A DNA stretch of 64,000 bases, from NCBI GenBank assembly GCA_034780895.1, contig JAUZTB010000064.1, forward strand, positions 110,010,301-110,074,300. Reading direction: 5' to 3'. The notes beneath the pieces were generated by a model. It ran no database searches, was not told the origin of the DNA, and saw nothing but the letters and a program-made list of their open reading frames with translations. Below, one piece after another: positions 8,825 through 57,250 of this stretch (the first letter of the stretch is position 1; each line of letters starts with the position of its first letter). The stretch is from Rhynchobatus australiae (taxonomy: Eukaryota). A program made the translations under genes and the position numbers.

Positions 8825-8925
8825 ACAAAAACAGAAAATGCTAGAAATACTCAGCAGGCCAGGCCATATTTCTGGGAAGAAAAACAGAGTCAACATGTCA
8901 GGTCAGAGACCCTTTGTCAGAACAG
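8825..8925 (-). mobile_element. Solo Penelope-like terminal repeat with degenerate hammerhead motif
   Basis: acagaaaatgctagaaatactcagcagg...agagtcaacatgtcaggtcagagaccctttgtcagaac; same family as the repeats abutting PLE RT remnants at 26017 and 56390. Confidence 0.65.
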
Positions 8926-10359
8926 ATCACAGGGGATGAAACAGAATCATTCCACGTAAGGAGAATGAGCTGAGACAAAGCTCATCTTCAATGCAAAGTG
9001 GTAGCTGTGGTTGGCATATAGTAACTACAGAACCAGTATTTGTTTTACTTCATGGTGTTTTTAGTCTGGAAATTTTCCGATCAGTAAAGCAGCAAATGCC
9101 ACTCTAAATCTTCTAGCCTCCTGGGTAGACTACCAATTAATGCCATGAAAGGCTAAAACATCTTCACCCTTTATACCAATAAACTCCATTCTGTGATTTG
9201 AGTGAATGCAGGACCAGGGAAGACTGGTAGCTAGAAATCCCACTCAATCACACTATTAGCAGAAGAGCTGGTTAGAGTAACACTTTGCATGGCAGTGCAT
9301 TTGGATACACCTCAACAACTATTGTTTAAGTTTCTCACACTTCAACATTACAAAAAAGAAATCATTCTACACAAAAGCAGTACTATGAAGAATTACATCC
9401 AACATGTCTAGAGACCTGACACAATACTGACCCTTATTTATCATTTCCATAACTATTTTAAAGTCACAGCTGCTTCCTGATATTGTAAAATGACTTAACT
9501 GTCAAGGTAAAGTGATAGTGTAAAATGACTTGATCTAATCCTATAAGTTTCAACACAAGAAAATAACTTAATAAATTATTTCACAATCAGCTTGTTTGAC
9601 CAAGTTTTATTATTGTAGAATCAAAAGGAACACCATGNNNNNNNNNNNNNNNNNNNNNNNNNNNNNNNNNNNNNNNNNNNNNNNNNNNNNNNNNNNNNNN
9701 NNNNNNNNNNNNNNNNNNNNNNNNNNNNNNNNNNNNNNNNNNNNNNNNNNNNNNNNNNNNNNNNNNNNNNNNNNNNNNNNNNNNNNNNNNNNNNNNNNNN
9801 NNNNNNNNNNNNNNNNNNNNNNNNNNNNNNNNNNNNNNNNNNNNNNNNNNNNNNNNNNNNNNNNNNNNNNCACCGCTGGGTGAATTTAAGAAAGCAATTT
9901 TAAAATGAAAATTTTTAAATAAATGTTCTGATGTTTTTTTAAGAATGGCAAGCTAGAACAGTTTGATTAGCAGAGTTTAAATGGGTTAACATAAAAAAGG
10001 ACATTTTAATCAGAATATATGGTCCACCTTGCAGAAGGACCCAATTTTAAATAATTGAAAATGATTTCTTAAAATATACAAGAATATTTATTTGTGATAT
10101 CTGCATGGTCAACTTGCAGTAAATACAAAAAACATATATACTCAAAAACTTTCAAAAACACACATATTGATGTCCTGACACCCCACAAACTAACTTAGAG
10201 CCTCCTCAAAGATTTGCAAACAAGTCCAATTAACAGAATGCAAATGTTATTATTTTGGTCTGGAGTTGCGGTCAGTCTTGTAAGTAGAATTTGCAACAAG
10301 CATTTTTTTGTGTGTTTGTGCAAAAGGTCACAGGGTGATCTGTGCCTGGAGCTAGAAGG

Positions 10360-12035
10360 TACAGATGAAGCCCTAAATGAATACTTTTCAGTGGTGTTCA
10401 CAAAGGAAACATACTTTGTAGTTGGAGAATTCAGTGAAAGTGTAGGTGAAAATCCAGTGCAGGTCTCCATAAATAAAGAGGAGGTACTCGATGCCTTAGC
10501 AGGTTTAAAGGTGGCTGAATCTCCAGAACCCGATGGGATTTATTCCAGGTTATCATGGGGGGCAAGAGAAGAGATTGTTGGTGTTCTGGATGCAATTTTT
10601 GAATCTTCACTGAATACAAGTGAAGTACCAGATGAATGGAAGACAGCAACCATGGTCCTCCTTTTAGCAGGGAAAAGCCTGGTAACCAGACACCTGTCAG
10701 CCTACAATCAGTAGTAGGGAAGATACTGGAAAAAAAATTCTTAAGGAGAGGATTGACGATCACTTGGAAAGGGTCTAACCAGAGGTAGCCAACATGGCTT
10801 TGCCAAGGGCAGATCCTGTCTGACCAACTTGATTGAATACTTTGAAAAGGTAGCGAAGTGGATTGATGAGAGCAGGGAAGTAGATGTTAGTTACATGGAC
10901 CTTAGTTAAGCCTTTGACATGGACCCACATGGGAGTCTGGTCCAAAACGTTATGGCCCATGTGATTCAAGACAAGTTGGCAAACTGGATCCAAAATTGGT
11001 TTGCAATAGGAGTAAGAGGGTGATGGTAGAGGGCTACTGTTGTGATTGGATGCCTGAGACTAGTGGTGTCCCACAAGGATAGGTGCTGGGGCCCTTGCTG
11101 TTTGTAACAGATGTGAATGATTTGGATGTGGATATGGGAGACATGATCAGTAAGTTCGCAGATGACACAAAGATTGGCAGAGTCGTTGACAGTGTGGAAG
11201 GCAGCCTTAGGCTGCAGAGAGATATCAATGTGATGATGAATTAGGCTGAAAAAGGCAGGTGGAGTTTAATCCAGACAAATGAGAGGTGATGCATTTTGGA
11301 TGTATTAATGAGGCTAGGACATAGGGTCTTAGGGAGTACTGAGGAACAGAGGGATCTTGGTGTACAAGAACACAGATCTTTGAAGGTGGCAACACAGGTA
11401 GACAATGTGGCTAGGAAGGCATATGGGATACTGGCTTTCATTAGTCGGGGCATCAAATACAGAAGTAGGGAGATTATGCCCCAACTTTATAAAACCTTGA
11501 GNNNNNNNNNNNNNNNNNNNNNNNNNNNNNNNNNNNNNNNNNNNNNNNNNNNNNNNNNNNNNNNNNNNNNNNNNNNNNNNNNNNNNNNNNNNNNNNNNNN
11601 NNNNNNNNNNNTTTAGTTTCAAGGAGAGGAGAAGCTAGGTCTGTTTTCTCTGGAGCAGAGGCTAAAAGGGGAGGTATGTAAAATTATGAGGGGTACAGAA
11701 TGGGTAAACTGCAGGAAACCTTTCCCCATAGCAGAGGTAGATAAAACTGGAGGATGTAGGTTTGGGTTTGGGGTGAGGGGGAAGAAATTCAGATGGAATA
11801 ATGAGGGGGAGGGGGGCCTTCTTAACCCAGAGAGTGCTAAGTATGTAGAATGCACAACCTAAGAGAGTGGTTTAAGCTGGGTAACTAACAGATGAGCACT
11901 TGGATCACTGAGGCATATAAGGCTATGGACTAAGTGCTGGGAGATGGGATTAATAATGAAGGGTGCCCATTGATCAGCGTGGATGAGCTGGGCCAAATGG
12001 CCTGTTTCCATGCTGTGCAATTCTATGACTCTAAG
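10360..12035 (+). mobile_element. 5'-truncated CR1-clade LINE (RT plus 3' tail)
   Basis: ORF 10214-10714 contains EALNEYFSVVFTKE...SPEPDGIYSRL...VPDEWKTA; SKFADDTKI at about 11149-11175; QRDLGVQEHRSLKVATQVD; 3' tail gggccaaatggcctgtttccatgctgtgcaattctatgactcta. Confidence 0.9.
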
Positions 12036-12389
12036 CTCTCTCTGCACAGAATGCAATTCACGTTTCAAATTCAGTGATTCTTTGCTCTGTTTTCATCAAT
12101 TTTGCGTGAATTGCATGAAGAAAACCAGTACGATCATGCAGAATTCTTCCCCAACCACAAAGCAATTCTTAATTGTCTACTCAATAACTTATCATAAAAT
12201 CAACACTATTTACAATACACTGCAATTTTCTGAGTGCGACATTGATTACAAGCAGGAGGGTTAATGTTGTCCAGAAATTTAAGTAGAACTGCCACATAAC
12301 TGCTATTGCTAGAAGAGCAGACCAGCAGCTAGCTATTCTGTGACAAATGCCACAATTCCTCATTTCCCTGGCTCCACAAACCTCTCTCA

Positions 12390-12970
12390 CATATACAAGG
12401 TATATTAGGAGTGTAATGTCATGATGTCATACTTTCCAGCTGCCTCAATGAGTGCAGTTGTAACATAACTTGAGAAGCTCAATCCCTTTAAAGACAAAGC
12501 ATCCCAGTACTTTGGCATCCAATCTACCACCCTGAACATTCACCCCCTCCATCACTGGTGCAACATGGTGCAGTATGTTCCATTTACAAATTGGCAAGAC
12601 TTCTTCCACACACCTTCCAAAACTACAATCTCTACCACTCAGGAATANNNNNNNNNNNNNNNNNNNNNNNNNNNNNNNNNNNNNNNNNNNNNNNNNNNNN
12701 NNNNNNNNNNNNNNNNNNNNNNNNNNNNNNNNNNNNNNNNNNNNNNNTCTCTACCACTCAGGAATAGAGAAGGAAACACATGGGTACCCTGGTAGATTCA
12801 AGTTCCAATGCAGGTCACACACTTTCGAGACTTGAAATATTTTGCTGTTGCTTCTTGCTGCTGGGTTTAAATCCTGGAATTGCTTACATAACATCATCAT
12901 TGGAGCACTTTAACCAGATCAACTGCAGGGGTTCAAGGAGGCAGTTCACCATTACCTTCTTAAGAGCAGG
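12390..12970 (+). mobile_element. 3' fragment of a second CR1/L2-group LINE family (family B)
   Basis: Similar to the reverse complement of 57290-57780 (gagtgcag...gagaagctcaa...gacaaagca...caccttccaaaa...ctgggtttaaatcctggaa...ggttcaagg). Confidence 0.7.
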
Positions 12971-13039
12971 AAAACATATATCCTTAGATACTCTCTCAAC
13001 TTCTCGGCATTTTGGTCAGAAAAGAATTCTCAAACTGCT

Positions 13040-16890: not shown

Positions 16891-17883
16891 ACATAGAACA
16901 TAGAACAGTACAAGCACAGGAACAGGCCCTTTGGCTCACAATGTCTGCGGTGAACATGATGCCAAATTTGAACTAAATCTCTTCTGCCTGTAAATGATCC
17001 AAATCCTCCATTCCCTGCCTATTCATTTGTTTATCTAAAAGCCTCTTAAATGCCACTACTGTATCTGCTTCCACCACTACCCCTGGCAGCCCATTCCAAG
17101 CACCTAACACTCTCTGTGTAAAAAAGACTTGCCCTGCACATCTCGTTTAAACTTTCCCCCCTCACCTTAAATGTATGTCCTCTAGTACTTGACATTTCTA
17201 CCCTGGGAAAAAGATTCTGACCATCTACCCTATCCATGCCACTCATAATTTTATAAACCTCTATCAGGTTACCCTTCAGCCTCCAATGCTCCTCAGAAAA
17301 CAACCCACGTTTGTCCAACCTCTCCTTATAGCTCATACCTTCTAATCCAGGCAGCATTCTGGTAAACCTCTTCTGCACCTTTTCCAAAGCCCTCACATCC
17401 TTTCTGTAATGGGGTGTCCAGAATTGAACATAATAAGCCAAGTGTGGCCTAATCAAAAGTTTTATATAGTTGCAACTTGACTTTGTGACTCTTATACTCT
17501 ATGTCCCTACCAGTGAAGGAAAGCATGCCATATGTCTTCTTTACCACCCCACCTACTTGCGTAGCCAGTTTCAGTGAGCTATTAAATTGGACCCCAGGAT
17601 CCCTCCTTCCATCAATGTTGTTAAAGGTCCTGCCATTAACTGTATACTTTCCACTTATGTTAGACCTTAGTAAGTGCCTGCCATTAACTGTATACTTTCC
17701 ACTTATGTTAGACCTTAGTAAGTGCAACATCTCACACTTGCTCGGTTTAAATTCCATCTGTCATTTCTCCACCCATATCTGTAAATGATCTATATTCTGC
17801 TGTATCCTATGACAGCCCTCTATATTGTCCACAATATATATTGTAATTATTGAGATATATATATATATATCACAAACAAATGG
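16891..17883 (-). mobile_element. 5'-truncated CR1 LINE with 12-bp target-site duplication
   Basis: ORFs 17046-17456 (RPHLAYYVQFWTPHYRKDVRALEKVQKRFTRMLPGL) and 17449-17757; tail (ttctatg)2 at about 16892-16906; aggtggctcctt at both 16879-16890 and 17884-17895. Confidence 0.9.
17629..17724. repeat. Perfect 48-bp tandem duplication within the CR1
   Basis: cctgccattaactgtatactttccacttatgttagaccttagtaagtg occurs twice; HLLRSNISGKYTVNGR is repeated in ORF 17449-17757. Confidence 0.95.
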
Positions 17884-18954: not shown

Positions 18955-20610
18955 AAAGGAAGATTCAGCCATACACCTCCTCAAGCTTGCTCTGTTATTC
19001 ATTTAGAACTTAAGTTTCATTTTCCTGCCCAATTCCTTAAAGTCTAAAAATATATTGTAGCCTTGAATATNNNNNNNNNNNNNNNNNNNNNNNNNNNNNN
19101 NNNNNNNNNNNNNNNNNNNNNNNNNNNNNNNNNNNNNNNNNNNNNNNNNNNNNNNNNNNNNNNNNNNNNNNNNNNNNNNCCTTTAAAGAGAAGAAAATGC
19201 CATCAGAGGAAACATCCTCTCTGCCTCTATTCTGTCAAGCTTCCTCAGAATCCTATATATTTCAAATGGATCCCTCGCATTCTTCAGAACTCCAGACACA
19301 ATCTGTTTAATCTTTCCTAAGACAGTCCATCCATATCTGGAATCAATCCAATGAACCTCATCTACATTGACTACATTGGAGACAAAACTGTATGCCCCAG
19401 TGCAGGTGTGGTTTCACCAAAGACTTTCACTGTTGTGACAAAACTTCTTCACTTTTGTACTCCACCCTCCTGCTAACATCCTATTTGCTTTCCTACATAT
19501 TTGTTGTAATCTCACATTAGCTATATTTCTTGTACAAGGAAACCAAGATTGCTGAATACCAGTTTCAATGGAATTTAAATTGTATGCTATTTTACAATCA
19601 TTCCTTTCAGAGAGAATACTCACATTTCCCCACATTAAACTCCTTATTCCATAGTTTTGCCCAATCACTCAACCTGTTCATATCCCTTTGCAGACTTGTT
19701 TCTTCTCACAACTTAATTTTTCACTTGTTTGTCATTAGCTAACCTCAAGATTATACACCTGTATATCTCTGTATCTAAATCATGAATATAGATTACATTG
19801 TCAAAGGCCAGCACTCATTTCTGTGGCTCTTCACTGGTTACAGTTTGCCTTTCTGAAAAAGATTAGTTTTGCTCCTCTCTCTGCTTTCTGTCAGATAATC
19901 TGTCCTATTTTCATGCTAATATACTATCCTCAATATCACGAGCCCTTATCTTGTATAGTAACTTTATATGTGAGACCTATCAAATCTGTTTTGAAAATCC
20001 AAATCCACTGATTACCCAACAGCTCCTAATTCCCATTGTGTAGAAAATTCTAAAGATTAATAACCTATTAAGATAAGAATTGCTCCTCAGAGTCTTAAAT
20101 GGTCAACTTAATCAGATGTATGCTCCCCTTGATCTAGATTCTGCCATAAGAGGAAACATCCTCTGAACATCTATCATGTCAAGCCACCCCAGAATCTTAA
20201 ACTACATTGACTAGTCACTGTGTGATCAAAGTATGCTATTATACTTCTTTAATAATGGATTCCAGCATTTTCCCAATGATAGATGTTAGGCTAACTGGGC
20301 TATAGTTCCCCAATATCTCTTTTCCATTTTTTTCCTGAATAGCAGTGCTACCTTTGTGGTTTTCAAATCCCCTGGTAACAATTCAGATTCCAGGCAGATT
20401 TGGAAGATCACAACCAATGCATCCACCATCTCTACAGCCTCTTCCTTTATGATGCAGGCCATCAGGATCAGGCGAATTATCAGTCTTTTGTCCCATTGGT
20501 TTGCCTCATACATTTTGTCCAGTAATAGCGATTGCATTGTTCCACTTTCTCCTTTGCCCCTAATTCCAATTATTTTTGGTACATCTACTGTGAAGACAGA
20601 TACAAAATGT
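18955..20610 (-). mobile_element. Decayed CR1 LINE fragments
   Basis: ORF 20286-20537 (KEEAVEMVDALVVIFQICLESELLPGDLKTTKVALLFRKK); ORF 19414-19668 (QQICRKANRMLA); 3'-end-like sequence near 18960-19330. Confidence 0.7.
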
Positions 20611-21339
20611 CCAGTTAAATATTTTAGTCTGATGAACTCCAGGCTCGGCTAGGAGACAAAAAATGTTCAGCGGATTTGGAGGAATGTGGTCCTTAAACAA
20701 TTAAGGAATATCCTTTTACTATATTAGTACTAACTTTACTCTTCAAGAATTTCTAAACCACAAATGAAAAACTGAAAATTTTGTATACTTCAGTAACTTT
20801 TGTTTCATTGTAGAACTAATGGAATATTAGATAAAGCTTCATCTTAAGTCCTGATAAGTTCATACCCTAAAACACTCACATTCTAAATACTCTTATTATT
20901 TCTCATATACGAAAGAACACCAGATATGAGTTTTCATGAAAAAATAAACTGAAACACAAAATCCGATTCTAAACCAATAAAAATCATAAAATCCATTGTA
21001 ATAAAAAGGAATTTCATCTTATTCTGTCACTTTGTGGAGATGGTCTTGGACACAGGGCTTTATTCAGAGCAGCTGTGTGGCATTTTTTGTGTTATCAGCT
21101 GTTTTTTGTGGCTGTGTCAGCTATTTTAAAACTATACTCAGCTTTTCTAAGTTTTATAGTTTGGTGCATATAAAACTATTGAACTAGTAAAATATCAGAC
21201 CAATAATTCTGTAAGATTTTAATGACCAATTATTTTCACTTCACGCTTTCTGAAAATTGCAAGTGATTGGAAGGAGCTGGGTGCTACCACTCAGTACACT
21301 CAAGTGACTGGGGAATCCTTGCAAGATGTAGACTGCAAC

Positions 21340-22900: not shown

Positions 22901-23720
22901 TGGTGCTCAAGACTTCTCAGCCATTTCATAAGATCATGGCTAATTTATAATCTCAACTTCACNNNNTGAATTATTATTTCAACGCCTTGCTTATTAAAAA
23001 TATTAATTATATTTTTATTAATAATCTGTTTCCAACCACCCTTTGAATAAGTGTTACAAAAAGTCATGACCCTCTAAGAGACAAAAAGTTGCTCAATTAT
23101 GTCTTCAATGGGCATCTGCTTATTTTTAAATAGTGACACCTTTTTCTAGATTCTCCCACAATAGGAGACACCTTCTCCATGTCCACCCTGTTAATACCCC
23201 TCAGGATCTTATATATTTCAATCAAGGCCCCTCTGAGTCTACATTCCAGTGTATACATGCATAACTGTCCTGCCTTTCCTCAACAGATTGTCCACCTTTT
23301 CCAGGCATGTCTATTTAGCCTTCTCTGAACTGCTTCTTTCTGCATTTACATCTTTCCTTAAATAAACAGACTAATACAGATGTGGTTTCACCAATGCCCT
23401 ACATAACTGAAGCATAATCTCCCTACTTTTGTATTCAGTTTCCCTGGCAATAACTGATGACATACTGTTGGCTTTCCTAATTCCTTGTTGTATCTGAACA
23501 CTAGCCATTTGCAAGTCATACACTAGGACACCCAGATCCCTTTGCATTTCTGAGCTCTGCAAACTCTCCTTCCCAAAATGTATAATCTTACATTTCCCCA
23601 CTTTATATTCTGTTTTTCAGACCCCTGCCCACTCACTTAAACTACACATACCACTTTGTAGGTTCCTAACATCCTCTTCACTGCTTCTCTTGCCTCTCTA
23701 TTTTGGTGTCACCAGCTGTA
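22900..23720 (-). mobile_element. Decayed CR1 LINE 3' portion
   Basis: ORF 23371-23601 (KCKIIHFGKE...QRDLGVLV...IRKANSM...EYKSREIMLQLCRALVKPHL). Confidence 0.8.
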
Positions 23721-23924
23721 GGATTTCATTTACTGTTGTGGGTTCTACATTGCAATAGATACCAGCTCACTGACTGAAGTCTGTATCATGTCCTGAGGGC
23801 AGGGAAAGCATGATATAAAGTCACAGTAGTAGTACCATCCATGGGGAGGGGTCAATTGGGACATGGATAGAGCACTGGTGGGAAGGAGGAGGTTCAAGGG
23901 CCAGTCTGTACATTGGCTGGGCTG

Positions 23925-24398
23925 GCTGGAAAGAGTGCATAGAAGATTTATGAAAATGTTGTCAAAAGTTAAGGGCCTGAGTATAGGGAGAGGTTGGGCA
24001 GGCTAAGACTTTATTCCTTGGAGTGCAGGAGACTGAGGGGTGACGTTATAGAGGTGCATAAAATCTTGAGGGTCATAGGTAAGGTGAATGCACAAAGCAT
24101 TTTTCCCCAGGAAAAGGAAATCAAAAACTAGAAGGCACAAGCTTAAGGTGAGAGGGGAAAGATTTAAAAGGGATCTGAGGAGCAACTTCTTCACATAGAG
24201 GGTGGTGCACATATGGAACAAGCTGGCAGTGGAAGTGGTTGAGACGGGTACATTAACAATGCTTAAAGGCACTTGAACAGGTATATGGATAGGAAAGATC
24301 TGGAGGGATATGGGGCAAACACAGGCAAATGATGGGCCCCTTGGTTGGCATGCACGAGTTAGGCCAAAGGGCCTGTTTCCATGCTATATTACTCTTAT
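23925..24398 (+). mobile_element. CR1 LINE 3' end
   Basis: LERVHRRFMKML...RRLRGDVIEVHKIL...RGHKLKVRGERF...NFFT*RVVHIWNKL; tail aggccaaagggcctgtttccatgct. Confidence 0.85.
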
Positions 24399-24619: not shown

Positions 24620-26100
24620 ACTTTTTATCATTCTTGATTGTATCAGTGTCATTTCCCGCTCTCACTCCAAACTAGAATTTGTCAATTTTGCTTTCAATTT
24701 CTTAGCCTTGCTTATCTTCACAAGGAACTTCTCCAACACTTACTCTCCTTGACTTCCTCTATTTCCATGTCTGGGACTAGACCAATGATTGAAAGCCCAC
24801 TGGCTCCTATAACTACCATGAATACTTCCCATTTCTTGTAAGGACTCTATTCCATTCTCCTGGTTTCTCCAAACACAGTGCATCAATTCTGACTCTGCAA
24901 ACTTCCATATCAATGTTCCAGATGAATCTTACTACACCATGCTGACAGGGCACTCAAATGTGTGCATCTCATTTCCTGAAATTATCTCACGCCTTATATT
25001 CATTTCCTTACAAGGTTCTCCTCAGCCTCATCTTCTACCACACTAACTATATTCAATGGACCATTTTTCCCCATGATGCTACTACCAAACACTTCCATCT
25101 TCTCCCCTTTCAGCATTCTGAAGTGAAGTCAGAAACTTCGTCCATTCCACAATTATTCCCAATACCTAACCCCCATCCCACAGTACCCATCTGTGCATAC
25201 TCAAGAGATGCAACACCTCCATTTTTACTGTACTCCTTCCCCACTGCTCGGGGAGGGGGGGGCGGGGTTCAGAGCAATGANNNNNNNNNNNNNNNNNNNN
25301 NNNNNNNNNNNNNNNNNNNNNNNNNNNNNNNNNNNNNNNNNNNNNNNNNNNNNNNNNNNNNNNNNNNNNNNNNNNNNNNNNNNNNNNNNNNNNNNNNNNN
25401 NNNNNNNNNNNNNNNNNNNNNNNNNNNNNNNNNNNNNNNNNNNNNNNNNNNNNNNNNNNNNNNNNNNNNNNNNNNNNNNNNNNNNNNNNNNNNNNNNNNN
25501 NNNNNNNNNNNNNNNNNNNNNNNNNNNNNNNNNNNNNNNNNNNNNNNNNNNNNNNNNNNNNNNNNNNNNNNNNNNNNNNNNNNNNNNNNNNNNNNNNNNN
25601 NNNNNNNNNNNNNNNNNNNNNNNNNNNNNNNNNNNNNNNNNNNNNNNNNNNNNNNNNNNNNNNNNNNNNNNNNNNNNNNNNNNNNNNNNNNNNNNNNNNN
25701 NNNNNNNNNNNNNNNNNNNNNNNNNNNNNNNNNNNNNNNNNNNNNNNNNNNNNNNNNNNNNNNNNNNNNNNNNNNNNNNNNNNNNNNNNNNNNNNNNNNN
25801 NNNNNNNNNNNNNNNNNNNNNNNNNNNNNNNNNNNNNNNNNNNNNNNNNNNNNNNNNNNNNNNNNNNNNNNNNNNNNNNNNNNNNNNNNNNNNNNNNNNN
25901 NNNNNNNNNNNNNNNTTCAGTCCCTCCTACCTGTCGCTTCTTTATAAATATCTTGGTCCCAACTCTTTTTCCTGACACTCCATTTGTTAAAATCTCTACA
26001 TCTCTATCATTTTGCCAGTTCTGATGAGGTCATTGACCATAAATGGTGTTTTTCTCTCTCCACAAATGTTACCTGGCATGATTATTTATTGTTTATATTT
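24620..26100 (+). mobile_element. Decayed Penelope-like element (RT C-terminal region, gap, terminal repeat)
   Basis: LFIILDCISVISRSHSKLEFVNFAFNF resembles the PLE RT motif FxRYIDDCIG...LENFINFASNF; downstream KPTxS...CKDSIPFS-like remnants; ends in the terminal repeat with CTGATGA at 26021. Confidence 0.65.
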
Positions 26101-29472: not shown

Positions 29473-29639
29473 CTTAATGAAGAGCTTCCCCAAGCACCGT
29501 GTTTATCTGTCAAAATGTTGATAATCTTCTGTATTAACTGGGTTGATGTCACATGATCACGATACTTTGCTGCTCTTATCAGGTGATCACACATCTTTTC
29601 TTCTTCACGTCTTTCCGCTGAATACTGGGCACACAGAGA
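29473..29639 (-). CDS. LRBA: LRBA internal coding exon (167 nt, phase 0 to 2), SLCAQYSAERREEEKMCDHLIRAAKYRDHVTSTQLIQKIINILTDKHGAWGSSSL
   Basis: Minus strand ccttttcttgacag|TCTCTGTGT...TCATTAAG|gtaaat. Open frame continuous with the previous exon; LRBA-type HLIRAAKYRDHV and QLIQKIINILTDKHGAWG. Confidence 0.96.
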
Positions 29640-30451
29640 CTGTCAAGAAAAGGATTAATGTATTTTTATTTACAATGTTATCATTTTTACAATCAGACAC
29701 ACCAAGTCAAAAGGGCTGTGGAGAATTGGATCATATTTTTAATGTCTTCTTGAAAGACTGTATCATCTTTCACACATTTATTGCAGCACTTCTGGTATTA
29801 TCAGTTGATGAAAATCAGAAGTCTTATCACTATATTTCACTGACAGAGAGCAAACCTCCAGCATGTGGGACATGTGCCATGCTGATTCACATAAGACAAC
29901 CTCCCGATCACTATCAGCTGTTTATATGGAGGAGAAACAATCTTTAGTTAATTGTAGAAATGAATATTTAATAACTTTCAGCTCTTGAAAAATAATGGTT
30001 AAAAATTGAAGTCTGGGACATCAATTTATGCAAGCCTGGAGTACAGCAATATTGTACCTATTTCTGGTTATGTCAGCATGCCTTGGAAAATTCAATTCCT
30101 GAGTTTTGGTGATGGTTTCATTTGTCCTGGCTTATTTTTTTCAGGGTGCAAATCTCCACCAAGTGACATTAATAGTAGTGTAATATCCACAATTATTTAT
30201 TAGCATAATTTTTAACCTCATTGGTCTGAAAAATGATGGTTCTTACTTATTCACAGAAGAACCAGTATTTACTAAAATAGTTTCCAATGAAATTATGCAA
30301 CCTTGGAAGCCAACCCTAAAACTGCATTCTTTGCTCTTACTGAGATCAGTGATTTCAAACGCATTCTTGTGTGTGCTTGGACTGCTTTGCCTGTGGTGGT
30401 CAAAGTTATGGCTACTCTCAGCTCTCTAGCCTCAAGGTCACTCCTATGAGT

Positions 30452-30770
30452 AAAAACAGAAAAACACTCAGCAGTCAGGCAGCATCTGTAGAAAGAGAAA
30501 CAGTTAATGTTTTAGGTCCAGGACCCTTCATTAGAACCAATATTCAGGTTNNNNNNNNNNNNNNNNNNNNNNNNNNNNNNNNNNNNNNNNNNNNNNNNNN
30601 NNNNNNNNNNNNNNNNNNNNNNNNNNNNNNNNNNNNNNNNNNNNNNNNNNATTAGAACCAATATTCAGGTTCTTATGAAGGGACCCAAACCTGAACTGTC
30701 AACTGTATTTCGTTCCACAAATGCTGTCTGATATGCTGAGTGTTTCAAGCACTTTCTGCTTTTATTTGTG
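30452..30770. mobile_element. Head-to-head inverted pair of Penelope-like terminal repeats, each with a degenerate hammerhead motif
   Basis: Left arm 30452-30538 (minus) and right arm 30668-30770 (plus) are reverse-complement related; the intervening 100-N gap has a duplicated 21-bp flank. Confidence 0.7.
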
Positions 30771-32227: not shown

Positions 32228-32578
32228 GTGGGACAGTTGACAGAGCCACTGCCTTGCACTGCCAGAGAACTGGGTTCAATCCTGACCTTGGGTGCTGTGT
32301 GGAGTTTGCACATTCTCCCTGTGACTGGGTGTGTTTCCTTCGGGTGCTCCAGTTTCCCCCCACATCCCAAAGACATGCAGGTGGTAAGTGAATTGGCCAG
32401 TATAAATTTTCCACAGTGCATTGGTGAGTGGTGGAATCTAGGGGCAGTTGGTGAGAATGCGGGAAGAATAAAAACTGGGATTAACATAGGATTGGAGTAA
32501 ATGGGTGGTTGATGGGCAGTGCAGACTTGGAGATCCAAAGGGCCTGAATCCATGCGGTTCCTCTCTATGATTCTATGA
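32228..32578 (+). mobile_element. Near full-length V-SINE (HE1-like) with CR1-derived tail
   Basis: B box GGTTCAATCC at 32273-32282; V domain ggagtttgcacattctccctgtgactgggtgtgtttccttcgggtgctccagtttccccccacatcccaaagacatgcagg; tail ccaaagggcctgaatccatgc...ctctatgattctatg resembles local CR1 3' ends. Confidence 0.85.
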
Positions 32579-43560: not shown

Positions 43561-43969
43561 AACATCCTTCAGGATTGTCTTTCAGTTATAACACTTCTGA
43601 TGACCATTACCCTCTGAGGGTATCCCACTGAGCCAATTTTGAATCCAGTCTTACTTTGCCTTGGTTTCCACGGTCTTTTACTAGATCAAATGTACCACTA
43701 TCATAGATCTTCCTTGTTAGCTTCTCAAAACATCCCATTAATAAGCTAAGAACTTCCCTTAAGCCACCCATGCTGACTTTGAGAAAACAATTTCATCTCT
43801 CTTCTAGATTGTTTGCCAGTAATTTTGAATGTTTGACTGATAGTTAGTGAGCCAGTCACCAGAGGGAATAATATTTTTCAAAACCTATCTTGAAAAGCTC
43901 TAATTAAGACAGCATATGTATGTTTAACACAGATCTCAGTCAACACCACATCCTTTTTGTAATTCTGTC

Positions 43970-44140
43970 TGTTGGTCTCCATCCTATCTGAGAAAGTCAC
44001 ATAGTTCATGCCACTCCTCCACCTTCTCTGCAATTAAAACATGTAATTTCTAATGTATAATTTCTTATGAAAGGTCATATACCTGAAATCCCATCTCTGT
44101 TTCTCCTGCCATCAATGCAACCAAACCAATTAAGTATTTT
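43970..44140 (+). mobile_element. Penelope-like terminal repeat with degenerate hammerhead motif
   Basis: CTTATGA aaggtcatatacct GAAA at 44064-44088, followed by ctctgtttctcc...aatgc. Confidence 0.55.
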
Positions 44141-44149
44141 GAACAGATA

Positions 44150-44298: not shown

Positions 44299-47200
44299 TT
44301 CAACCTTATGTTTGTGAATAATCCAGTTTAAATGCAGTGCCATGCATAGATGAACAGGGTAAATGATGAAGCTACATCCAACCTTCAGGGAAAAGTATTA
44401 ATGTAGATGGAGCTCTAGCACACAGATATCTTAAGGTTAATGAACAAAACAGTGAAGCAAAGCCAAAGTGAATGGAGTGTTGGGGTGTATTTATAGTACC
44501 ATTTACAAGAGAGTGCATAGTTTTTCATCATTGACCAAGACCTCAGTACAGCTTCAGCTTTTATCTCCTCACTTCATGGGTGCTATTTAGGACTGATACA
44601 GTGCATAGACCAATTCCCCACTTAAACCAATTTGATGGACTTAAAAATTCTGAGTCATTACACCCTAAAGAAATATGGACCCAACATTTCTAAAGGTGTC
44701 ACAGAATTTCCAGTCAGCAGCTCATTGCTTATACTCACTTCTGGTCAATAAAAAAAATCCATTTAGCTTGTCCATTTTCTACTGACAGCTCAAAAGAAAT
44801 CAGTCAGATTCTCACCAGCATGTCTATGCACAGTAGAGGGTATTCAATGCTAAATGCCATCATATAGTAGGTTGGCAAGGGGATTGGGGTAAGGTGAACA
44901 AATCAAGTCCCACTCACTAAATAGCTCAAAATAAAACAAGGGCAACTAACTTTAAGGCCTCTGGCTTAACCAGCTGTTAATGACTTTTAAATATTCCTGG
45001 CAACCAGAAATATTCAAAAGAGTTCCAAAACAATTATAAAACTAGTTTTCAAAGCACCTGAAAAATGATTAAAAGAATTAAATAGCTTAAAAACAAAACT
45101 ATTTCAACAAACATTGAAATAAATTAAAAGTAAAAACAGTACAATACCTTTCTTTCTTGCATTCATCCCTGACCATTGAAATCAATGTTTGTAAACGATC
45201 CCACTTGGTGCAAGCTGTTCATGCAGATTCCACGCCATGAATGGTGGGAAATTGCTGCAGGTTTGCATCACTAGATTCAGAGTGCAGTTGGCAAAATGGC
45301 TTTAAACAAATGTCAGCAAGTTCAGGATATCCATGTCCTCACATGCATACAAGGGCATCCTAATCTTGAAAGCAGTTCTATGGGGCCAAAAGTGCCAGTA
45401 GTAATTCAAGTTGACAATCAATTCCAATTAAGTGGGTTAAAGAGAACCAGGGGCACCATGTCATTATTTTAAATTTTGCAAGACTGGATTTCTCATACAT
45501 GTCAGGTGAAGGGCATTTTTCCCAGAGAATGGCAGACCTGTTTGCTTGCATGGTGCACAGATATTTGCAGATTGTCTTCCAGTAAGAATTGGACCCATTT
45601 CTGGCTGGGGTATGCATAATCTCTTTTTTTAAACAAGGCAGGCGGTGCATAGTATTATCAGTGATCACTTGAACTGGTTTCAACCTACTTGTGTGGTTAG
45701 GAGGTTGTGGGCAAAAAGGTGGGGTGGTGATGGTCGTCAGAGAACAGTCACCTAAACTTTTCTCTGCAAAAGCAGCACTTTCAAGAAAATACTAGATTAG
45801 GTGAGTAGTGGAGAACATGTATCACTACTGAAAGATACGCAGGATTATCTGGAGGCTCCTTCAAATTAAATTTTTTTCATGTGTTTTGGGAAGTTGTGCT
45901 GATTTCTTCTTGATCCCTTTTTTAGCTTGCTTTTCCTCTGGAAACTACCAGGTTAAACTAACCTTGTTCACAAGGTTTCATTTCTCTGTTGGATCATCTA
46001 TTTTTTGTATTTCAATATTTATTCAGGCCTGAATTCTTCCCCGTATTGCCCTCAAGATGCATGTTTCCAAACTTCTTGATCCCAAGAATATTCAGTCTCT
46101 CTGATTTTCTTCTGCTCAACAAACAATGCAAACTTATTCCTCTATTCCTACCTTCTATTCTTCTGAACGATATTTATAGTCCAACTCTCACACCAACTCC
46201 TCATCCCAAAATCACTCTTCTTCAACATCTGTCGCCAGCTTTAACTCTCTGTAAAATCTCACATCTTGAACGGCTAATTTAGCAACTGCCCTTCATTTTT
46301 TGCTTCATAGCTACCCAAGTTTAACACTTTATAAATTACTTCTAGATATTTTACTACTTAAATGGTAACATATATGTTTTTTTTGTTTTGTCTTTATTTC
46401 TAAGAAAGGAGTAACCAATAGCAACAAAATGACAAGTACCATAAAGCTGTTGATTAGGTCAATAGTTCCAAGAATGCTTTTATGGAAATTTGCAATGTGC
46501 AAGTCAGTTGATTAGGTCAGCTTATGTAAGAACTGAAATAAAATGGAGAATGCTAATAATACTCAGCAGATCAGGCAGCATCTGAGTTTATCAGAATTTG
46601 AAATGGCTACAAATTTGAATTATAGAGGAAAATTGGAAAATGTTGCTACAATGGAGATTATTTTAAGACAAAATAAAGTTATATGCAAACAAAAGTATGA
46701 TTTTATTGGGGGCTTTATCCCACCTAATGTAAGTGAAGAATGTGAGAATACCTAAACAATCTGGAATCTGAACTTGCAAGTATAATTTTACTGTGTTGTC
46801 ATCCAGTCAGTTTGAGGTCCCATGAGAGGCAACCCTCATGTGAGTTTGATAAGGGCAAGAAGAAACAGACTGCATTATAAGCAAAAAAAATTAATAGAAC
46901 AACCAGAACAACAATGACTATGATATGTTAATCTGCAAAGAGCAATCATCATTTAATCAATTTGGCATGAAATAGATCCACTGCAAGACAATTGTTTTGT
47001 AAATTTCAATGGAAACACAACTAAAACAACAAAAAATAAAATATTAAAAAGGTCTAATTTTTGCAGCAGTGAAAATTATCATGGTGGGATGGTGCTATAT
47101 ACTTTTTGCCACATTTTTCTTCATTTTGAAGTATGCAGATATGCTCCCATTGTTTTTGGACTCTGCAATCTAATTACTTTCCTCACCTAATCAAAAATTA

Positions 47201-49552: not shown

Positions 49553-49685
49553 AATGGTCTGACGAAGGGTCTTCAATTTGAAATATTAACTGGTTTCTCT
49601 TTCCACAGATGCTGCTTGACTGGCTGAGTTCTTCCAGCATTTCTGAGTTTGCTTCAGATTCCAGTACCTGCAGTTTTATTTGTTC
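49553..49685 (+). mobile_element. Penelope-like terminal repeat with both hammerhead core boxes intact
   Basis: CTGACGA (49559-49565), agggtcttcaattt, GAAA (49580-49583), tattaact, then ttccacagatgctgcttgactggctgagttcttccagcatt. Confidence 0.7.
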
Positions 49686-49711
49686 TCCATTAACAGCAAA
49701 ACTCAGCTTAC

Positions 49712-49820
49712 CTCAAACTCAGCATGTCTATGTATATCTTCTGCCCGCTGTCTGCTCAGGATAAACTCAGCCTCATTTGCTACCCTCACCAGGTGATCTT
49801 TCATGGTATGACATAGGAGT
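49712..49820 (-). CDS. LRBA: LRBA internal coding exon (109 nt, phase 2 to 0), (R)[36 protein letters not shown]
   Basis: Minus strand tttttttccctcatag|ACTCCTATGT...GAGTTTGAG|gtaagc. Open frame; LRBA-type residues KDHLVRV and [14 protein letters not shown] in DUF1088. Confidence 0.96.
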
Positions 49821-50314
49821 CTATGAGGGAAAAAAATGCAACTAAGAAACAAATTCAAGTAATAAATATATACTTTTATTCAATACTCCAAGCATGTAAA
49901 ATAAATGAGCAAAATTCAATGAACAGTTTTCCATCTTACAACACGCAAGAGCAAGGTTTTGTTACAGTAATAAGGAAATATCTTCCCATTCTTTTATTCT
50001 GCACAAAATATTTTTCTGTTACAAGGACAAAAGAGCTTAGATCCTTGAACAGAAAAATAGATACAATTTGTCTGAGCAAATTTTAACAAAACAGCAAAAT
50101 TTAGCATTCATTAAAAACTGCTTAAATCTTCAAGGACTTAAATTGGGACTAATATTATTGAAAACTTTAAAAGGCAATTCATTGAAACAGAATTGAGTTG
50201 CAAATATTTCCAACCACTGAAGCTTCATTACAAGCTATATTGCATAAAGAGATATGAGCATTATGACACTTGCACATGAAAGCAAAATTAAAAAGATTCA
50301 AAACCAAATTATCA

Positions 50315-50465
50315 CAGCTGGAAATCTAAAATAAAACAAAATATTCTGAAAATATTCAGCAGGCCAGGAAGCTTTAGTGGAACAAGAAGCACATTAACAA
50401 CTTTTCTCTCTTTGCAGATGCTTCCTGACAGCTGGTTATTTTCAGCATTTTTTGTTTTATTTTAA
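50315..50465. mobile_element. Inverted pair of Penelope-like terminal repeat arms with the central ribozyme region deleted
   Basis: aaaataaaacaaaatattctgaaaatattcagcagg...cagctggttattttcagcattttttgttttatttt; the arms are reverse-complement related. Confidence 0.55.
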
Positions 50466-52799: not shown

Positions 52800-53285
52800 C
52801 TAAATTTTGTCTCACCTTTTAAGATGTCATTGTTCATTTTCTAGCCTCGCTCACATCTGCTTTCTAATTGCTGTTTCTTCAAGGCTGTTAACTACACATT
52901 GGTCAACTTTGCCCTGGTTGCACATGTTTTATATTTTCTTTAGTTTACTATATGGTACCTATCAAAACTGCTTCTGGAACCCTAGACAAATTGCACACTT
53001 GTCTACTCACTTTCAACATGTCAAATAATTCAATAAGCAATTCATAAGCAAGACTTCTCCTACTGAAATCCATGCTGACTATTCAATGTTATATTTTGGC
53101 TTCAAAGTTTTTTTAGTTCCTTTAGTAGGGATTCCACTATTTTACCTATTACTTATATTAAGCTGATGCATTCTATCTCACATTTTAAATACAGGTACTG
53201 CATTAATGCTGTAACATCTCCCTGATATTATAGTTCTTTCTAACAAATTACAAAATATGTGCAATAGTGTCACTAGCTACTTCTT
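52800..53285 (-). mobile_element. Decayed CR1 RT fragment, host of the RTE insertion
   Basis: tatggtacctatcaaaactgcttctggaac...tgaaatccatgctgact...aagctgat (reverse of SQHGF...DFQKAFDKVPH). Confidence 0.55.
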
Positions 53286-53289
53286 CTCT

Positions 53290-55365
53290 CAGTCTGTGGT
53301 GACAGTGTGGCTGGACAGAATGGGTCATTGTGGGATAGAGTCAAAGACACACACATCAAGGTCAGATTCATGGTTGGGGAGGTCTTCAAAGTGATCCTTC
53401 CAGATGGGGCAGGCTGCCTGTCCTTGATAAGTTTACCTTTCATTGGCATGAAGCTTGAGTGTTTGATCTGCAAGCTGGTTTGAAGTGCTAAAAATTCCAC
53501 ACATGTTATGACTATTAGTAAATTGCTGAGCCTTCTGCATTCTTTCTGTTATTTAGGTCACAGGTTTTCTGCTGGACTTTGTCCTAACAGGTGTCTACAG
53601 AGATTTTTTTCCATTGAGGCATTGTGGGGTTTCCAATCCAGGAACATAGTGGTTAATTATTTCCCGAATCTGATGGTCATTCTCATAAAAACAAGTCCTG
53701 ACTCTTGATGGAGAAGCCAAAGGTCTTTTCACAGATGCTAATTAAAAGGGAGTAGGGCAGATGCTGTGGACACACTATGGCACTTATTGCCTGAGAGTCA
53801 ACAGGTTGCATGAGAGAAACTACCTAAGAGCTACTTTTGTGAGGTGCTTATGAACTTTGACATTGATTTTCTTGTAGCAACATTTCCGTTGACATTGGTG
53901 TTTTGAGGCCAGGATGAGAGAAATGACAGAAGGCTCTTCAGTCCTGCCTTACCTCCACTCCTAATCAGCTTGAAGCTGAAAAGACAATATGCCATCTAAA
54001 GAAATGGCAAAGATCTTGAAAGCAGATTGTAGCCCTGCAGAGGTTCTAAAACTCAGCAATGAGGAACTCCAGTCACAAATTCACAACCTGGGTAGAAAAT
54101 GCCAGGGGCCCTCAGAGATACCATAATCATAACCATCTTCATGAGAGGAGACAAATCCTACTGCAGTAAATACAGAAGGATCTCCCTGTAGTTTGCCAGA
54201 GGGAAAGTTATCACCAGGGTCCTCAGTCGCCTCCTCCTAGCGGCCAATTGACTGCTCCCCGAATCTCAGTGTAGATGCAATCCACCTAGAGGCATAGTGG
54301 ACATGACCTTCACTGTGCAATAAGTATAAGAAATAAGGGGAAAACAACAAGCTCAATATATAGCCTTTATTCAACCTCACTAAAGCCTCTGACTCCACCA
54401 ACCAGGAGGGACCATGGGGCACACTCCTTACATTTGTTCCATGGTGGCATGCAAAACATGCTACTGAGTCCACAAAAGATCTAATCTTAGTGCAGATTGG
54501 TGTTAAAGCAAGGTTGCATTATTGCACTAACACATTTTTCACTCTTCCTTGTGGCATCAGGTTTCCTGCTAAAGTACAGCTTGTCTACAAAACTAATGGA
54601 AAATTCCTGAATCAACTTCACTTCCATTCTACAATCAAAGTCACTGCAAGGTCAGTAACTGAGCTGCAGTACACAGAAAACACATGTGTTTGTGCATGCT
54701 GGAATGCAGAGCTTCAAGTTGTCCTTGATTCATTCACTGAAGAGTGGATGGGACTGAAGCTTTGCAAAACAAAGGAACTCAGCCAATCATACCATACTGC
54801 ACTCTAACAACATGGTTCCAGGCAAAACACTAGAAAACATGGATCACACCTTGGAAGCCATCAATCAGCAAAGACAGCATCAATGACGAAATTCATCTTC
54901 ACTTTCAATGCACTAGCACAACCTCTGAGGAAAAGGGCATTTGAAAGTCACAAACCCACATAAAGCTTACGGTCTATGGGGAAAGTTGTGATCACATAAT
55001 CTCATAATCTCCCTTGTCATGTCCAGCTCTTCATGCAACCGAACCTCAAAGTTTAACCTTCAAACCCAGATAATATGTAGGCATCATGCTATACTTGCTT
55101 TCAGGCAAATATACCTGGACAACATACAGAAATGGAAATAATAAAGCATAGGCTGAAGATAGTTCCAAGTAACCTTGATGAATCAGGAGGCCATGCATCA
55201 AGAGCATTCAGAAGCCCACCATAACTCATGGAAGGAGCACAAAGCCTCCCAGACCACCCACCCATCTCATTAAATATCTCCTGCCCTATCTATAAAGTCT
55301 GAAGTTCCAACACTGGCTCAGAACCCAGTGGAAGCAAGTCATTCTTCAGCCTGAGGGACTGCCAA
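53290..55365 (+). mobile_element. RTE-clade LINE with inverted 5' segment (53290-about 53945 minus; about 53950-55365 plus)
   Basis: Plus part: EAEKTICHLK...RDTIIITIFMRGDKSYCSKYRRISL...LLPESQC...RGIVDMTF...LTKASD...VTELQYTEN; tail gagggactgccaaagaaga. Minus part: ENDHQIREII...KLIKD...WKDHFEDL...DSIPQ. Confidence 0.8.
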
Positions 55366-55864
55366 AGAAGACAACCTTTCTGTTTCTTTCAAAAAAAATG
55401 CATAGATTTTTTGTTTGAGTTTGATAAAATTATTTATGATTTCTCCCAATTTTATTTGAAATTCATTATCATTTGCCATCATGTCTTCAAATGTCACATT
55501 CAATCAATCACCCTCCCAAGTAAACATTGACACCTAATCATTTTTAATAATTCTGACACCTTACTATTGCCTGTGGTTTATCCTGTCCAACTTTCACAGC
55601 TCCATTCCTATCTAAGCTTCCTTTTATTAATCTGTATATTTNNNNNNNNNNGTCATTTCCTAATCCCTCAATCTTCTTCATTTGTTTTGTCTTCTAATCT
55701 TTCATAATTTCCCTTGTCATGTCCGGTTCTTCATGCAACATGCCCTCAAAATTTAACCATCTGTGCTGCACTTGTTCTCAGGCAAATATACCTGGACAGT
55801 GTCCAGAAATGGAAATTTTTTAAAAATGGGAAGAAAATGCTACCAAGTAACCTTGATGAATTCA

Positions 55865-56023
55865 GAAAATCCTGGCCATACTCAACAGTTCAGGCAGCAT
55901 CAGTGGAGAGACAAACAGAGTTAACGTTCCAGGTCAATGACCTTTCAGTAGAACTGGGAAAAGTTAGAGAACATGCATGTTTTAAATTGCAGAGAAGGGG
56001 GAAAGAGGTTGAGAGAACTAAGC
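55865..56023 (-). mobile_element. Penelope-like terminal repeat with degenerate hammerhead motif
   Basis: 55919-55955 reverse complement AGTT CTACTGA AAGGTCATTGACCT GGAA CGTT AACT. Confidence 0.7.
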
Positions 56024-56131
56024 ANNNNNNNNNNNNNNNNNNNNNNNNNNNNNNNNNNNNNNNNNNNNNNNNNNNNNNNNNNNNNNNNNNNNNNNNNNNN
56101 NNNNNNNNNNNNNNNNNNNNNNNNNNNNNNN

Positions 56132-56360
56132 TTCAATCCCGACCTCGGGTGCTGTCAGTGTGGAGTTTGCAAGTTCTCCCCGTGACCATGTGTGTTTCCT
56201 TGGAGTGCTCCAGTTTTTTCCCACATCCCAAAGACATGCAGGTTAGTAGGTTAATTGGCCATTGTAAAGTCCCTTGGTATGTAGGAGAGTGGTAGAATCT
56301 GGCAGGGAAGGGGATTTTGATGAAAATATAGGAAGAATAAAATGAGATTAGTGTACCAGT
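56132..56360 (+). mobile_element. V-SINE (HE1-like), 5' end in gap
   Basis: ttcaatcccgacctcgggtgctgtcagtgtggagtttgcaagttctccccgtgacc...cccaaagacatgcagg; close paralogue of 32228-32578. Confidence 0.85.
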
Positions 56361-56389
56361 AATGTAAATACATATTGAACATATTTATT

Positions 56390-57250
56390 GCTAGAAACCC
56401 GAAATAAAAGAAAATGCTGGAAATACTCAGGAGGTCTGGCACAGAAGAGGAGAGAAAAAAACTGAGTTAACATTACAGGCTGATGATCTTGCATCAGAAC
56501 TAGCCAGCTCTGGCACAAATTGGAAAGGGTGGTTATGTGCAATTGCAGAATTCAATGTCGCATCTTGAGGGCTTTTACCCAACTAGACGAAAGATCAGGA
56601 CCTGGTCATTTAGTTTACATTGGGTTTTGTTGGAACAGTGAAGAAAACAGAAAGCACCATGACTACAGTCATCAATGCACTGGAAAAAGGCGAATGAGGG
56701 GATCAGAACCTGACTGAAACAAGTTCAGTTTCATATATCCCACAAAGAAACTGGGATAGCTTGGTCTCATCCTGGTTCCTATAGCTACACCTTCTATGGG
56801 AGAAAGTAAGTGAAATTCAATGAGTAGTTATTGAATTTGGAAATAAGTCCAGCCAGGCAGAGGAGGATGGTGGTGGAGGGAGATTGTTGGGCCTCAATCA
56901 AGGAAGAGGCAAAAGGCCCTCAGATTATCCTGGTGTGGGAAGGAGATGTGGAGAGATTGGAAGTCCATGGCGAAAATGAGCCAATTAAGACTAAGGAACA
57001 GGAAACTGCCAAAATGTGTAGAGCATCAAGGTGTCATGGATGTTAAGTGGGAAGGTACTGGACAAGGGAAGAAAAAGTAGAGTTAGAGTAAGAAGAAATA
57101 CATTCTGTGGGACAAGAATTGATTGAAACAGTCTACTAGAACAGTCTGGGAGGAAGTGGAGAGAAGCCTTGTAATGAGACTGGAGGATGAGGAGGGAAGA
57201 TATCCACTGTGCCTATGGGAGACAGTGGCTCGATGTGTTCAGTGGTGGGG
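56390..57250 (-). mobile_element. Internally deleted Penelope-like element (RT remnant plus terminal repeat)
   Basis: Minus strand about 56980-56730 decodes LIFAMDFQSLHISFPHQD...GVAIGTRMRPSYPSFFVGY, matching the PLE RT motifs MDVxSLYTSIPH and GVAMGTRMGPSYA; terminal repeat at 56390-56501. Confidence 0.75.

What the first reader, a model, noticed from the sequence alone, without database searches (positions are those of the whole stretch)
8888..56501. Dispersed Penelope-associated minimal hammerhead ribozyme family; consensus of eight intronic copies is an intact dimer-type HHR
Seen: eight copies of an about 37-nt motif align almost without gaps. 8888-8924(-) TGTT CTGACAA AGGGTCTCTGACCT GACA TGTT GACT; 26017(+) AGTT CTGATGA GGTCATTGACCA TAAA; 30502-30538(-) GGTT CTAATGA AGGGTCCTGGACCT AAAA CATT AACT; 30668-30704(+) GGTT CTTATGA AGGGACCCAAACCT GAAC TGTC AACT; 44060(+) ATTT CTTATGA AAGGTCATATACCT GAAA; 49555-49591(+) TGGT CTGACGA AGGGTCTTCAATTT GAAA TATT AACT; 55919-55955(-) AGTT CTACTGA AAGGTCATTGACCT GGAA CGTT AACT; 56465-56501(-) AGTT CTGATGC AAGATCATCAGCCT GTAA TGTT AACT. 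The consensus AGTT-CTGATGA-A-RGGTC-N3-GACCT-GAAA-CGTT-AACT (reading TG/CA as CpG decay) has both catalytic boxes. It also has stem I (AGUU/AACU), stem II with one extra A after A9, and a palindromic ACGU stem III that can form only between two ribozymes. Two copies sit at the ends of PLE RT remnants. Established: Penelope-like elements carry minimal type I hammerheads in their terminal repeats that cleave as dimers. Inference: this is an abundant elasmobranch PLE/retrozyme-like ribozyme family, mostly as solo non-autonomous ends.
Basis: partly seen in the sequence, partly recalled or inferred. Interest (0 to 1): 0.7.

Follow-up and report, generated by a model that had tools for sequence, protein, structure and literature searches.

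The report
Penelope ends with lopsided twin hammerheads
These are worn ends of a known kind of jumping gene that carries a tiny self-cutting RNA motif; none of the eight copies is whole, but two belong to a common element with two motifs in a row, the first carrying inherited core changes that likely disable it.

Summary
The eight motifs are real and lie in introns of a minus-strand BEACH/DUF1088 (LRBA/NBEA-type) gene. They are 3' ends of Neptune-type Penelope-like elements carrying the published minimal type I hammerhead. Density is about 140 copies/Mb, from several subfamilies. The scan has noted this family before, in this and at least 13 other genomes. No window copy is intact: one keeps all 11 core bases but only 2 of 4 stem I pairs. 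Rfam gives no hit. Compensatory stem changes appear between subfamilies, not above shuffles copy by copy.

Not found in print or in earlier notes: 56465 and 55919 are units 1 and 2 of one element. Its family carries two hammerhead+tail units (220-480 nt apart) after the GIY-YIG stop. Unit 1 has inherited core changes: A13 is kept in 2/21 unselected copies against 13/14 in unit 2, and A9 in 3/24 against 10/15. Most likely it is a neutral dead duplicate. Possibly it is a substrate-only partner that makes one cut per element end; I found no sign of selection for that. Another abundant subfamily has C at position 9.

The parts
56683..56970 (-). Neptune-type PLE reverse-transcriptase remnant (broken), joined by an internal deletion to the endonuclease end
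   Evidence: blastn to L061 62.9%, E 2e-21; RT motifs visible in translation
56506..56645 (-). Last ~35 codons of the GIY-YIG ORF (broken) and the ~35-nt linker
   Evidence: ORF-end profile 102.6 bits; tblastn E 8e-4
56377..56505 (-). Unit 1 (ORF-proximal hammerhead 56465-56501 plus tail), with inherited C9 and U13
   Evidence: Two-unit profile positions 4-273 cover 56645-56377
56132..56350 (+). Unrelated dispersed repeat (SINE-like by recall) between units 1 and 2; second copy at 32275-32483
   Evidence: Self-blast 75.7% over 222 nt; high depth
55849..56022 (-). Spacer end plus unit 2 (hammerhead 55919-55955 plus tail) of the same element; decayed core (G5A, A6C, A13G)
   Evidence: Two-unit profile positions 458-620
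49555..49677 (+). Hammerhead plus tail; the only copy with all 11 core bases, stem I 2/4; antisense to the host gene, 35 nt from an exon donor
43935..44148 (+). Spacer end plus decayed distal-type hammerhead (44060-44096; G5U, U16.1C)
30449..30538 (-). Left arm of a head-to-head pair (hammerhead 30502-30538; G5A, G12A)
   Evidence: a contig of run X2 joins across the N run between the arms
30666..30768 (+). Right arm of the head-to-head pair (hammerhead 30668-30704; G5U, A15.1C)
24630..25280 (+). PLE RT/thumb/linker remnant upstream of the 26017 copy
   Evidence: tblastn E 1e-3 for 24630-24872; linker read by eye in translation
26007..26080 (+). Truncated hammerhead (5' box and stem II kept, 3' half lost) plus part of the tail
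8813..8929 (-). Solo hammerhead plus tail stump (8888-8924; G8A, A14C)
50312..50464 (.). Fold-back pair of tails without hammerhead cores
46522..46584 (-). Tail-only fragment
59874..59977 (+). Faint ninth copy (spacer end and degenerate hammerhead start)
   Evidence: 20.6 bits, E 9e-7
62184..62248 (-). Host exon (BEACH-family gene), upstream of DUF1088
   Evidence: AG/GT boundaries; found with a recalled peptide motif
49712..49820 (-). Host exon, DUF1088 positions 4-39
   Evidence: Pfam E 4.9e-18
29473..29639 (-). Host exon, DUF1088 positions 41-92
   Evidence: Pfam E 7.6e-23

Best explanation
The eight motifs are decayed, mostly 5'-truncated 3' ends of several Neptune-type Penelope-like retrotransposon subfamilies, whose source RNAs likely used the minimal hammerhead as a dimer, and the copies here are likely inert.

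Shown: motif anatomy, position after RT+GIY-YIG frames, fold-back pairs, copy decay, intronic location. Inferred from published PLE work: in the source element two motifs pair through the ACGU palindrome and swapped stem I arms and cut after GUU (old class) or GUC (younger classes); reverse transcription starts in the tail and stops early, leaving stumps and inverted arms.

One old subfamily, which includes 56465+55919, gained a second hammerhead+tail unit just after the stop codon (shown). That first unit carried Y9/U13 core changes while the family was still spreading (shown). It was most likely a catalytically dead passenger (inferred).
For: Majority of 30 loci = CUGAUGA-A-stem II-GAAA-C(G)UU with 4-bp stem I, fitting the min-HHR consensus. 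GIY-YIG loci L060, L064 and L067 carry the repeat a few hundred nt past the stop on the same strand by profile (L066 by eye in its downstream translation; of 15 loci, several small contigs end first). 29 of 29 loci picked by the ORF end show PLE protein matches upstream, several with a CxxC linker; that linker marks Neptune (PMC8557442 passage).

30 of 102 fragments in 437 kb are in head-to-head pairs against ~2% expected, the known PLE signature. Tail-defined classes differ by compensatory pairs: 2.1-1.1 UA/CG and 10.1-11.1 AU/GC. Decay: 10 of 63 sampled copies keep the core and 0 keep core plus stems; strands are 10:9 around a minus-strand gene.

Two units: of 87 ORF-end hits, 61 have a unit within 60 nt and 38 have two. 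Unselected set: A13 2/21 vs 13/14 (p 9e-7), A9 3/24 vs 10/15 (p 1e-3). Neutral reading: the two units differ at 4 of 37 nt and about 8% of the tail, and unit 1's 3' stem I arm is no better kept (0.26) than the spacer (0.28).
Against: No cleavage data. Rfam has no hammerhead hit in the window or in six loci with near-intact copies. Per-copy covariation is not above shuffles (68/500), and the class-level changes are only two pairs, possibly one split. ViennaRNA does not favour the active dimer (pair probabilities at most 0.007). The classes come from a sample enriched by my own patterns. An abundant class with C9 (51 of the first 100 of 4,073 matches, counted by eye) and no tandem partner in 10 loci suggests that catalysis may be dispensable or that C9 is tolerated.
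Confidence: 0.85

Rival explanations
1. Unit 1 is a selected substrate-only partner. In the two-unit RNA, unit 2's intact core cuts unit 1's GUU site, while unit 1's Y9/U13 core cannot cut unit 2. This would give one local cut per element end instead of excising a ~350-nt piece.
For: The asymmetry is fixed and position-linked (A13 33/33 in unit 2, 4/30 in unit 1). Unit 1's majority keeps both stem I arms, the ACGU palindrome and GUU unchanged. The two changed bases are the adenines that face G12 and G8 (recalled), and both went to pyrimidines. With C9, folding extends stem II through the core (P 0.8-0.99). The family reached roughly 8-9 copies/Mb (4 in 437 kb).
Against: Two core changes among 11 bases is within an ~8-10% neutral drift. 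Unit 1's 3' arm varies more (19/72) than unit 2's (12/75). With U9, the commoner state, the extension is not favoured. The pseudo-dimer is not predicted in the full RNA. Deletions are equally common in both units (4 and 4 of 19). Related ORF ends lack unit 1 altogether. In Anolis, hammerhead cleavage was not needed for insertion in vitro (PMC11167929).
Confidence: 0.15
2. The motifs are monomers of a non-autonomous retrozyme family that spreads as circular RNAs, independent of PLE ORFs.
For: Two-unit spacing (324-374 nt in majority rows) is close to the 363-bp mean for chondrichthyan retrozymes in a 2026 preprint. Most copies lack visible ORF sequence.
Against: The two units are not interchangeable repeats: unit 1 follows the GIY-YIG stop and has its own flanks. 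No regular array of three or more units was seen. 5' ends of fold-back arms do not cluster at the cleavage site (6 of 108 within 5 nt).
Confidence: 0.08
3. Some intronic copies are host-used ribozymes that act on the BEACH-gene pre-mRNA.
For: Four of the eight are sense to the gene, two of them in tandem; one copy lies 35 nt from an exon.
Against: All four sense copies have two or three core changes. The sense tandem pair has both cores broken. There is no strand bias (10:9). The copy near the exon is antisense.
Confidence: 0.02

Closest known systems
[quoted passage not shown]
   Same: Both boxes, extra base after A9, short stem I, no loop III, palindromic 15.2-16.2, U-rich 5' flank, mostly solo truncated copies, some opposite-strand pairs.
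   Different: No cartilaginous fish in the part of Fig S3 seen or in the supplement search. The old class closes stem II with A-U rather than G-C (A-U occurs in their Latimeria and D. willistoni rows). No row seen has C9+A or a U13 core.
Neptune-clade EN+ PLEs and their insertion structure (Craig et al. 2021, PMC8557442; passages only)
   Same: RT, CxxC linker, C-terminal GIY-YIG; 5' truncation, partial tandems, adjacent inverted copy, tail.
   Different: One subfamily has two hammerhead+tail units in one 3' region. Clade was assigned from the linker and domain order, not from a tree.
[quoted passage not shown]
   Same: More than one minimal hammerhead in tandem in a PLE.
   Different: I could not see whether those copies are in one 3' region or unequal. 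This supplement may bear on novelty.
Vertebrate non-LTR retrozymes derived from PLE pLTRs (Li, Clavereau, Pollet 2026, bioRxiv 10.64898/2026.07.22.740005; parts 1-3 of 5, supplements closed)
   Same: pLTR-derived type I hammerheads; one chondrichthyan included, mean unit 363 bp.
   Different: They require tandem repeats with complete motifs in each unit. Here unit 1 is incomplete and tied to the ORF end.
Anolis Poseidon PAc hammerhead (Frangieh et al. 2024, PMC11167929; parts 1-2 of 4)
   Same: Minimal hammerhead in the pLTR; tail marks reverse-transcription starts.
   Different: Different clade, single motif; shown to be protein-assisted and dispensable for insertion in vitro. Not tested for this family.

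Membership tests
PLE minimal type I hammerhead | CUGANGA and GAAA boxes with NUH site in the family majority | tested here: met
   2,619 strict matches vs 0 control. Not met by unit 1 (Y9/U13) or the C9 class.
PLE minimal type I hammerhead | Extra base between A9 and stem II | tested here: met
   A at 9a in all 30 rows of alignment A1, where this position was left free
PLE minimal type I hammerhead | Palindromic 15.1-16.1, no loop III | tested here: met
   C/T and G/A mixtures at 15.2/16.2 fit a decayed CpG; younger classes have a CG majority
PLE minimal type I hammerhead | Covariation in stems I and II | tested here: inconclusive
   Two compensatory pairs between tail-defined classes; per-copy score 0.239 vs 0.217, 68/500 shuffles as high
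PLE minimal type I hammerhead | Self-cleavage as a dimer | not testable with these tools
   No RNA run listed; needs an in vitro assay
Rfam hammerhead families | Match to a curated covariance model | tested here: not met
   No hammerhead hit at E<=10 in the window or in six loci with near-intact copies
Neptune-type EN+ Penelope-like element | RT, CxxC linker and C-terminal GIY-YIG upstream of the motif, same strand | tested here: met
Neptune-type EN+ Penelope-like element | 5' truncation, inverted adjacent copy, tail | tested here: met
   30 of 102 fragments in head-to-head pairs; graded 5' extents
Neptune-type EN+ Penelope-like element | RT phylogeny groups with Neptune | not tested
   No reference PLE set was at hand
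Non-LTR retrozyme | Tandem repeats with a complete hammerhead in each unit, no ORF | tested here: not met
   At most two regular units; unit 1 is core-changed and follows the ORF stop
Non-LTR retrozyme | Abundant circular RNA | not testable with these tools
   No RNA holder listed

The most novel reading that the evidence does not exclude
A natural enzyme/substrate heterodimeric hammerhead. A Neptune subfamily with on the order of 10^4 copies places a core-locked hammerhead (Y9/U13) ~350 nt upstream of an intact one, so the obligate dimer forms locally and cuts once, just past the stop codon, giving unit-length element RNA.
Probability: 0.15. Interest if true: 0.65.

Novelty: new variant of a known kind. 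Interest (0 to 1): 0.32.

Why it matters
The basic finding adds one more genome to a known association. What PLE hammerheads do is still open: they are weak in vitro, absent from Naiads, and dispensable for insertion in the one reconstituted system. This genome holds natural variants that make the question testable: a two-unit end with one changed core, and a large class with C at position 9. If both variant cores are dead and those families still spread, cleavage was not needed for mobility. If unit 1 is cut only by unit 2, it is a natural one-cut heterodimer and shows how a dimer-only ribozyme can find its partner.

Tried and rejected
Rfam scans found no hammerhead. Tandem Repeats Finder found no array of the unit. 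No RNA holder was listed, so expression and cut ends were not examined; both runs laid were contigs.

The idea that copies start at the cleavage site was rejected: 6 of 108 fold-back arms. The idea that the two-unit form is a free retrozyme was rejected once the ORF end was found before unit 1. I tried to split two-unit copies into sublineages to test selection; copies are about 20% diverged and did not cluster cleanly, and region-wise divergence gave no support. Thermodynamic folding did not predict the active dimer.

Column labels were shifted, so its per-position A9/A13 tests were discarded and redone. Its two tests on by-eye counts stand: p 1e-16 and 2e-8. The automatic 26017 row is out of register because of a 2-nt deletion and was read by eye.

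Lunse et al. 2017 and three structure papers were not held. That A13 is needed rests on its place in the consensus core (PMC3088659), a general statement on core substitutions (PMC7092961) and recall. Searches for A13U data found nothing relevant. Searches for shark/elasmobranch PLE hammerheads or two-hammerhead pLTRs gave no such paper. Earlier-notes searches for the two-unit or variant core gave nothing.
Full report
Observation. Each is the front of a 110-140-nt repeat made of a hammerhead-like 37-mer and a tail. A family profile finds 11 fragments in the window at 28-108 bits; reversed DNA reaches 4.6 bits. 26017 and 44060 have lost their 3' halves. Only 49555 keeps all 11 core bases, and it has 2 of 4 stem I pairs. 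The window lies in a minus-strand BEACH-family gene: DUF1088 exons at 49712-49820 and 29473-29639, an exon at 62184-62248, and further DUF1088 and BEACH exons left of the window. All eight copies are therefore intronic, four sense and four antisense. LRBA versus NBEA was not tested.

Abundance and decay. The genome is 2.23 Gb. In 40 stretches taken at round positions (314,622 non-N bases) there are 77 fragments, 45 of them bearing the hammerhead part, or 143/Mb. That extrapolates to about 3x10^5 copies. A pattern fixing only the core and a tail anchor has 2,619 matches and 0 in the control. Of 63 copies in 437 kb (those stretches, eight flanks and the window), 10 keep the core and none keeps core plus stems. 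Strands near the gene are 10:9.

Identity. The majority of 30 loci fits the min-HHR consensus of Cervera and De la Pena (PMC4209133). Rfam has no hit. GIY-YIG loci carry the same repeat a few hundred bases past the stop on the same strand. In the window, RT remnants precede 56465 and 26017. Domain order and a CxxC linker point to Neptune (PMC8557442 passages); no tree was built. Thirty of 102 fragments sit in head-to-head pairs against about 2% by chance, the known inverted-copy signature.

Subfamilies. Clustering 284 copies on the tail alone gives classes 9-22% diverged. Between classes the pair 2.1-1.1 changes UA to CG and 10.1-11.1 changes AU to GC, and the triplet is GUU or GUC (the sample is enriched by my patterns). 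Copy by copy, on 30 loci with free stems, pairing is 78% and not above shuffles. Covariation is therefore suggestive only.

The two-unit end. Loci like 55919 often had a second unit 280-450 nt upstream, preceded by the end of the GIY-YIG frame. Of 87 distinct ORF-end hits, 61 have a unit within 60 nt and 38 have two units. In the window, 56645-56377 and 56022-55856 map to the first and last parts of this profile, with another repeat between them. So 56465 and 55919 are units 1 and 2 of one element.

Unit 1 differs in the core. With positions 9 and 13 left free, the unit-1 flank gives 62 matches with 40 pyrimidines at 13; the unit-2 flank gives 5 in the first 100 of 191 (counted by eye). A script on 30+30 of these loci gave 20 and 0. 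In 29 loci picked only by the 140 nt upstream (26 rows kept for unit 1, 17 for unit 2), A13 is kept in 2/21 versus 13/14 and A9 in 3/24 versus 10/15. In 35 two-unit loci, 16 of them selected on one unit, A13 is 4/30 versus 33/33. Four such ends in 437 kb, one of them the window's own, suggest about 10^4 copies.

Mechanism. From published work, minimal hammerheads cut as dimers, weakly. In Anolis they need the element's protein and are not needed for insertion in vitro. In a dimer each core cuts the partner's site, so a dead unit-1 core with an intact site would give one cut at unit 1.

For this reading: unit 1's majority keeps both arms, ACGU and GUU; the changed bases are those facing G12 and G8 (recalled); and C9 variants fold stem II through the core. 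Against it: the units differ at 4 of 37 nt and about 8% of the tail, so two core changes fit drift; unit 1's 3' arm varies as much as the spacer; the commoner U9 does not give the extension, and the dimer is not predicted; related ORF ends lack unit 1. I put the neutral passenger well ahead of the selected partner (0.15). That A13U kills activity is inferred from consensus status and recall; I found no direct data. A separate large class has C9 with intact GAAA and no partner, so C9 alone may be tolerated.

Comparison and novelty. It works like, and by the features tested is a member of, PLE minimal hammerheads; it fails the retrozyme definition. Earlier scan notes describe the same family in this genome (3 notes) and at least 13 others. 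None turned up for the two-unit variant. Literature searches found no paper on it. However, PMC7229834 mentions axolotl PLEs with tandem minimal hammerheads in a figure I could not read, Lunse et al. 2017 was not held, and the 2026 preprint's supplements are closed.

Verdict. A real, ordinary fossil family with one structural variant worth a bench test. Interest 0.32.

Noticed in passing
G000; L256, L259-L268: A large class reads CUGAUG-C-A before stem II with GAAA intact: C9 in 51, A9 in 44 of the first 100 of 4,073 matches (by eye); about 17% diverged; no tandem partner in 10 loci. Either a tolerated core variant or a family that spread without cleavage.
   Followed up: partly
L053, L054, L055, L057 (small contigs): Long unbroken RT+GIY-YIG frames (up to 735 aa) of a different PLE type, with higher CpG content in L054 and its own minimal hammerhead; may be young, transferred or contaminant DNA.
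   Followed up: no
window 30449-30768: The two arms are back to back with about 8 nt between them; 21 nt are duplicated on both sides of the N run, and a contig of run X2 joins across it.
   Followed up: yes
window 49555-49712: An antisense hammerhead stump ends about 35 nt from the donor site of a host exon.
   Followed up: no
window 54997-55183 and 55695-55861: A 71%-identical direct repeat about 700 nt apart, abutting the tail of the 55919 copy; origin unexplained.
   Followed up: no
window 10199-11500, 17046-17760, 20286-20648, 23377-24255: Several CR1/L2-like LINE RT remnants (by translation and tblastn); 17629-17725 holds an exact 48-nt duplication.
   Followed up: no
G000:C1:28147464 and 28147662: Two near-identical young hammerheads 198 nt apart on one strand; a candidate natural dimer.
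   Followed up: no
L263:1584-1809: A long fold-back between two C9-class arms scores as a miRNA-like hairpin below threshold.
   Followed up: no
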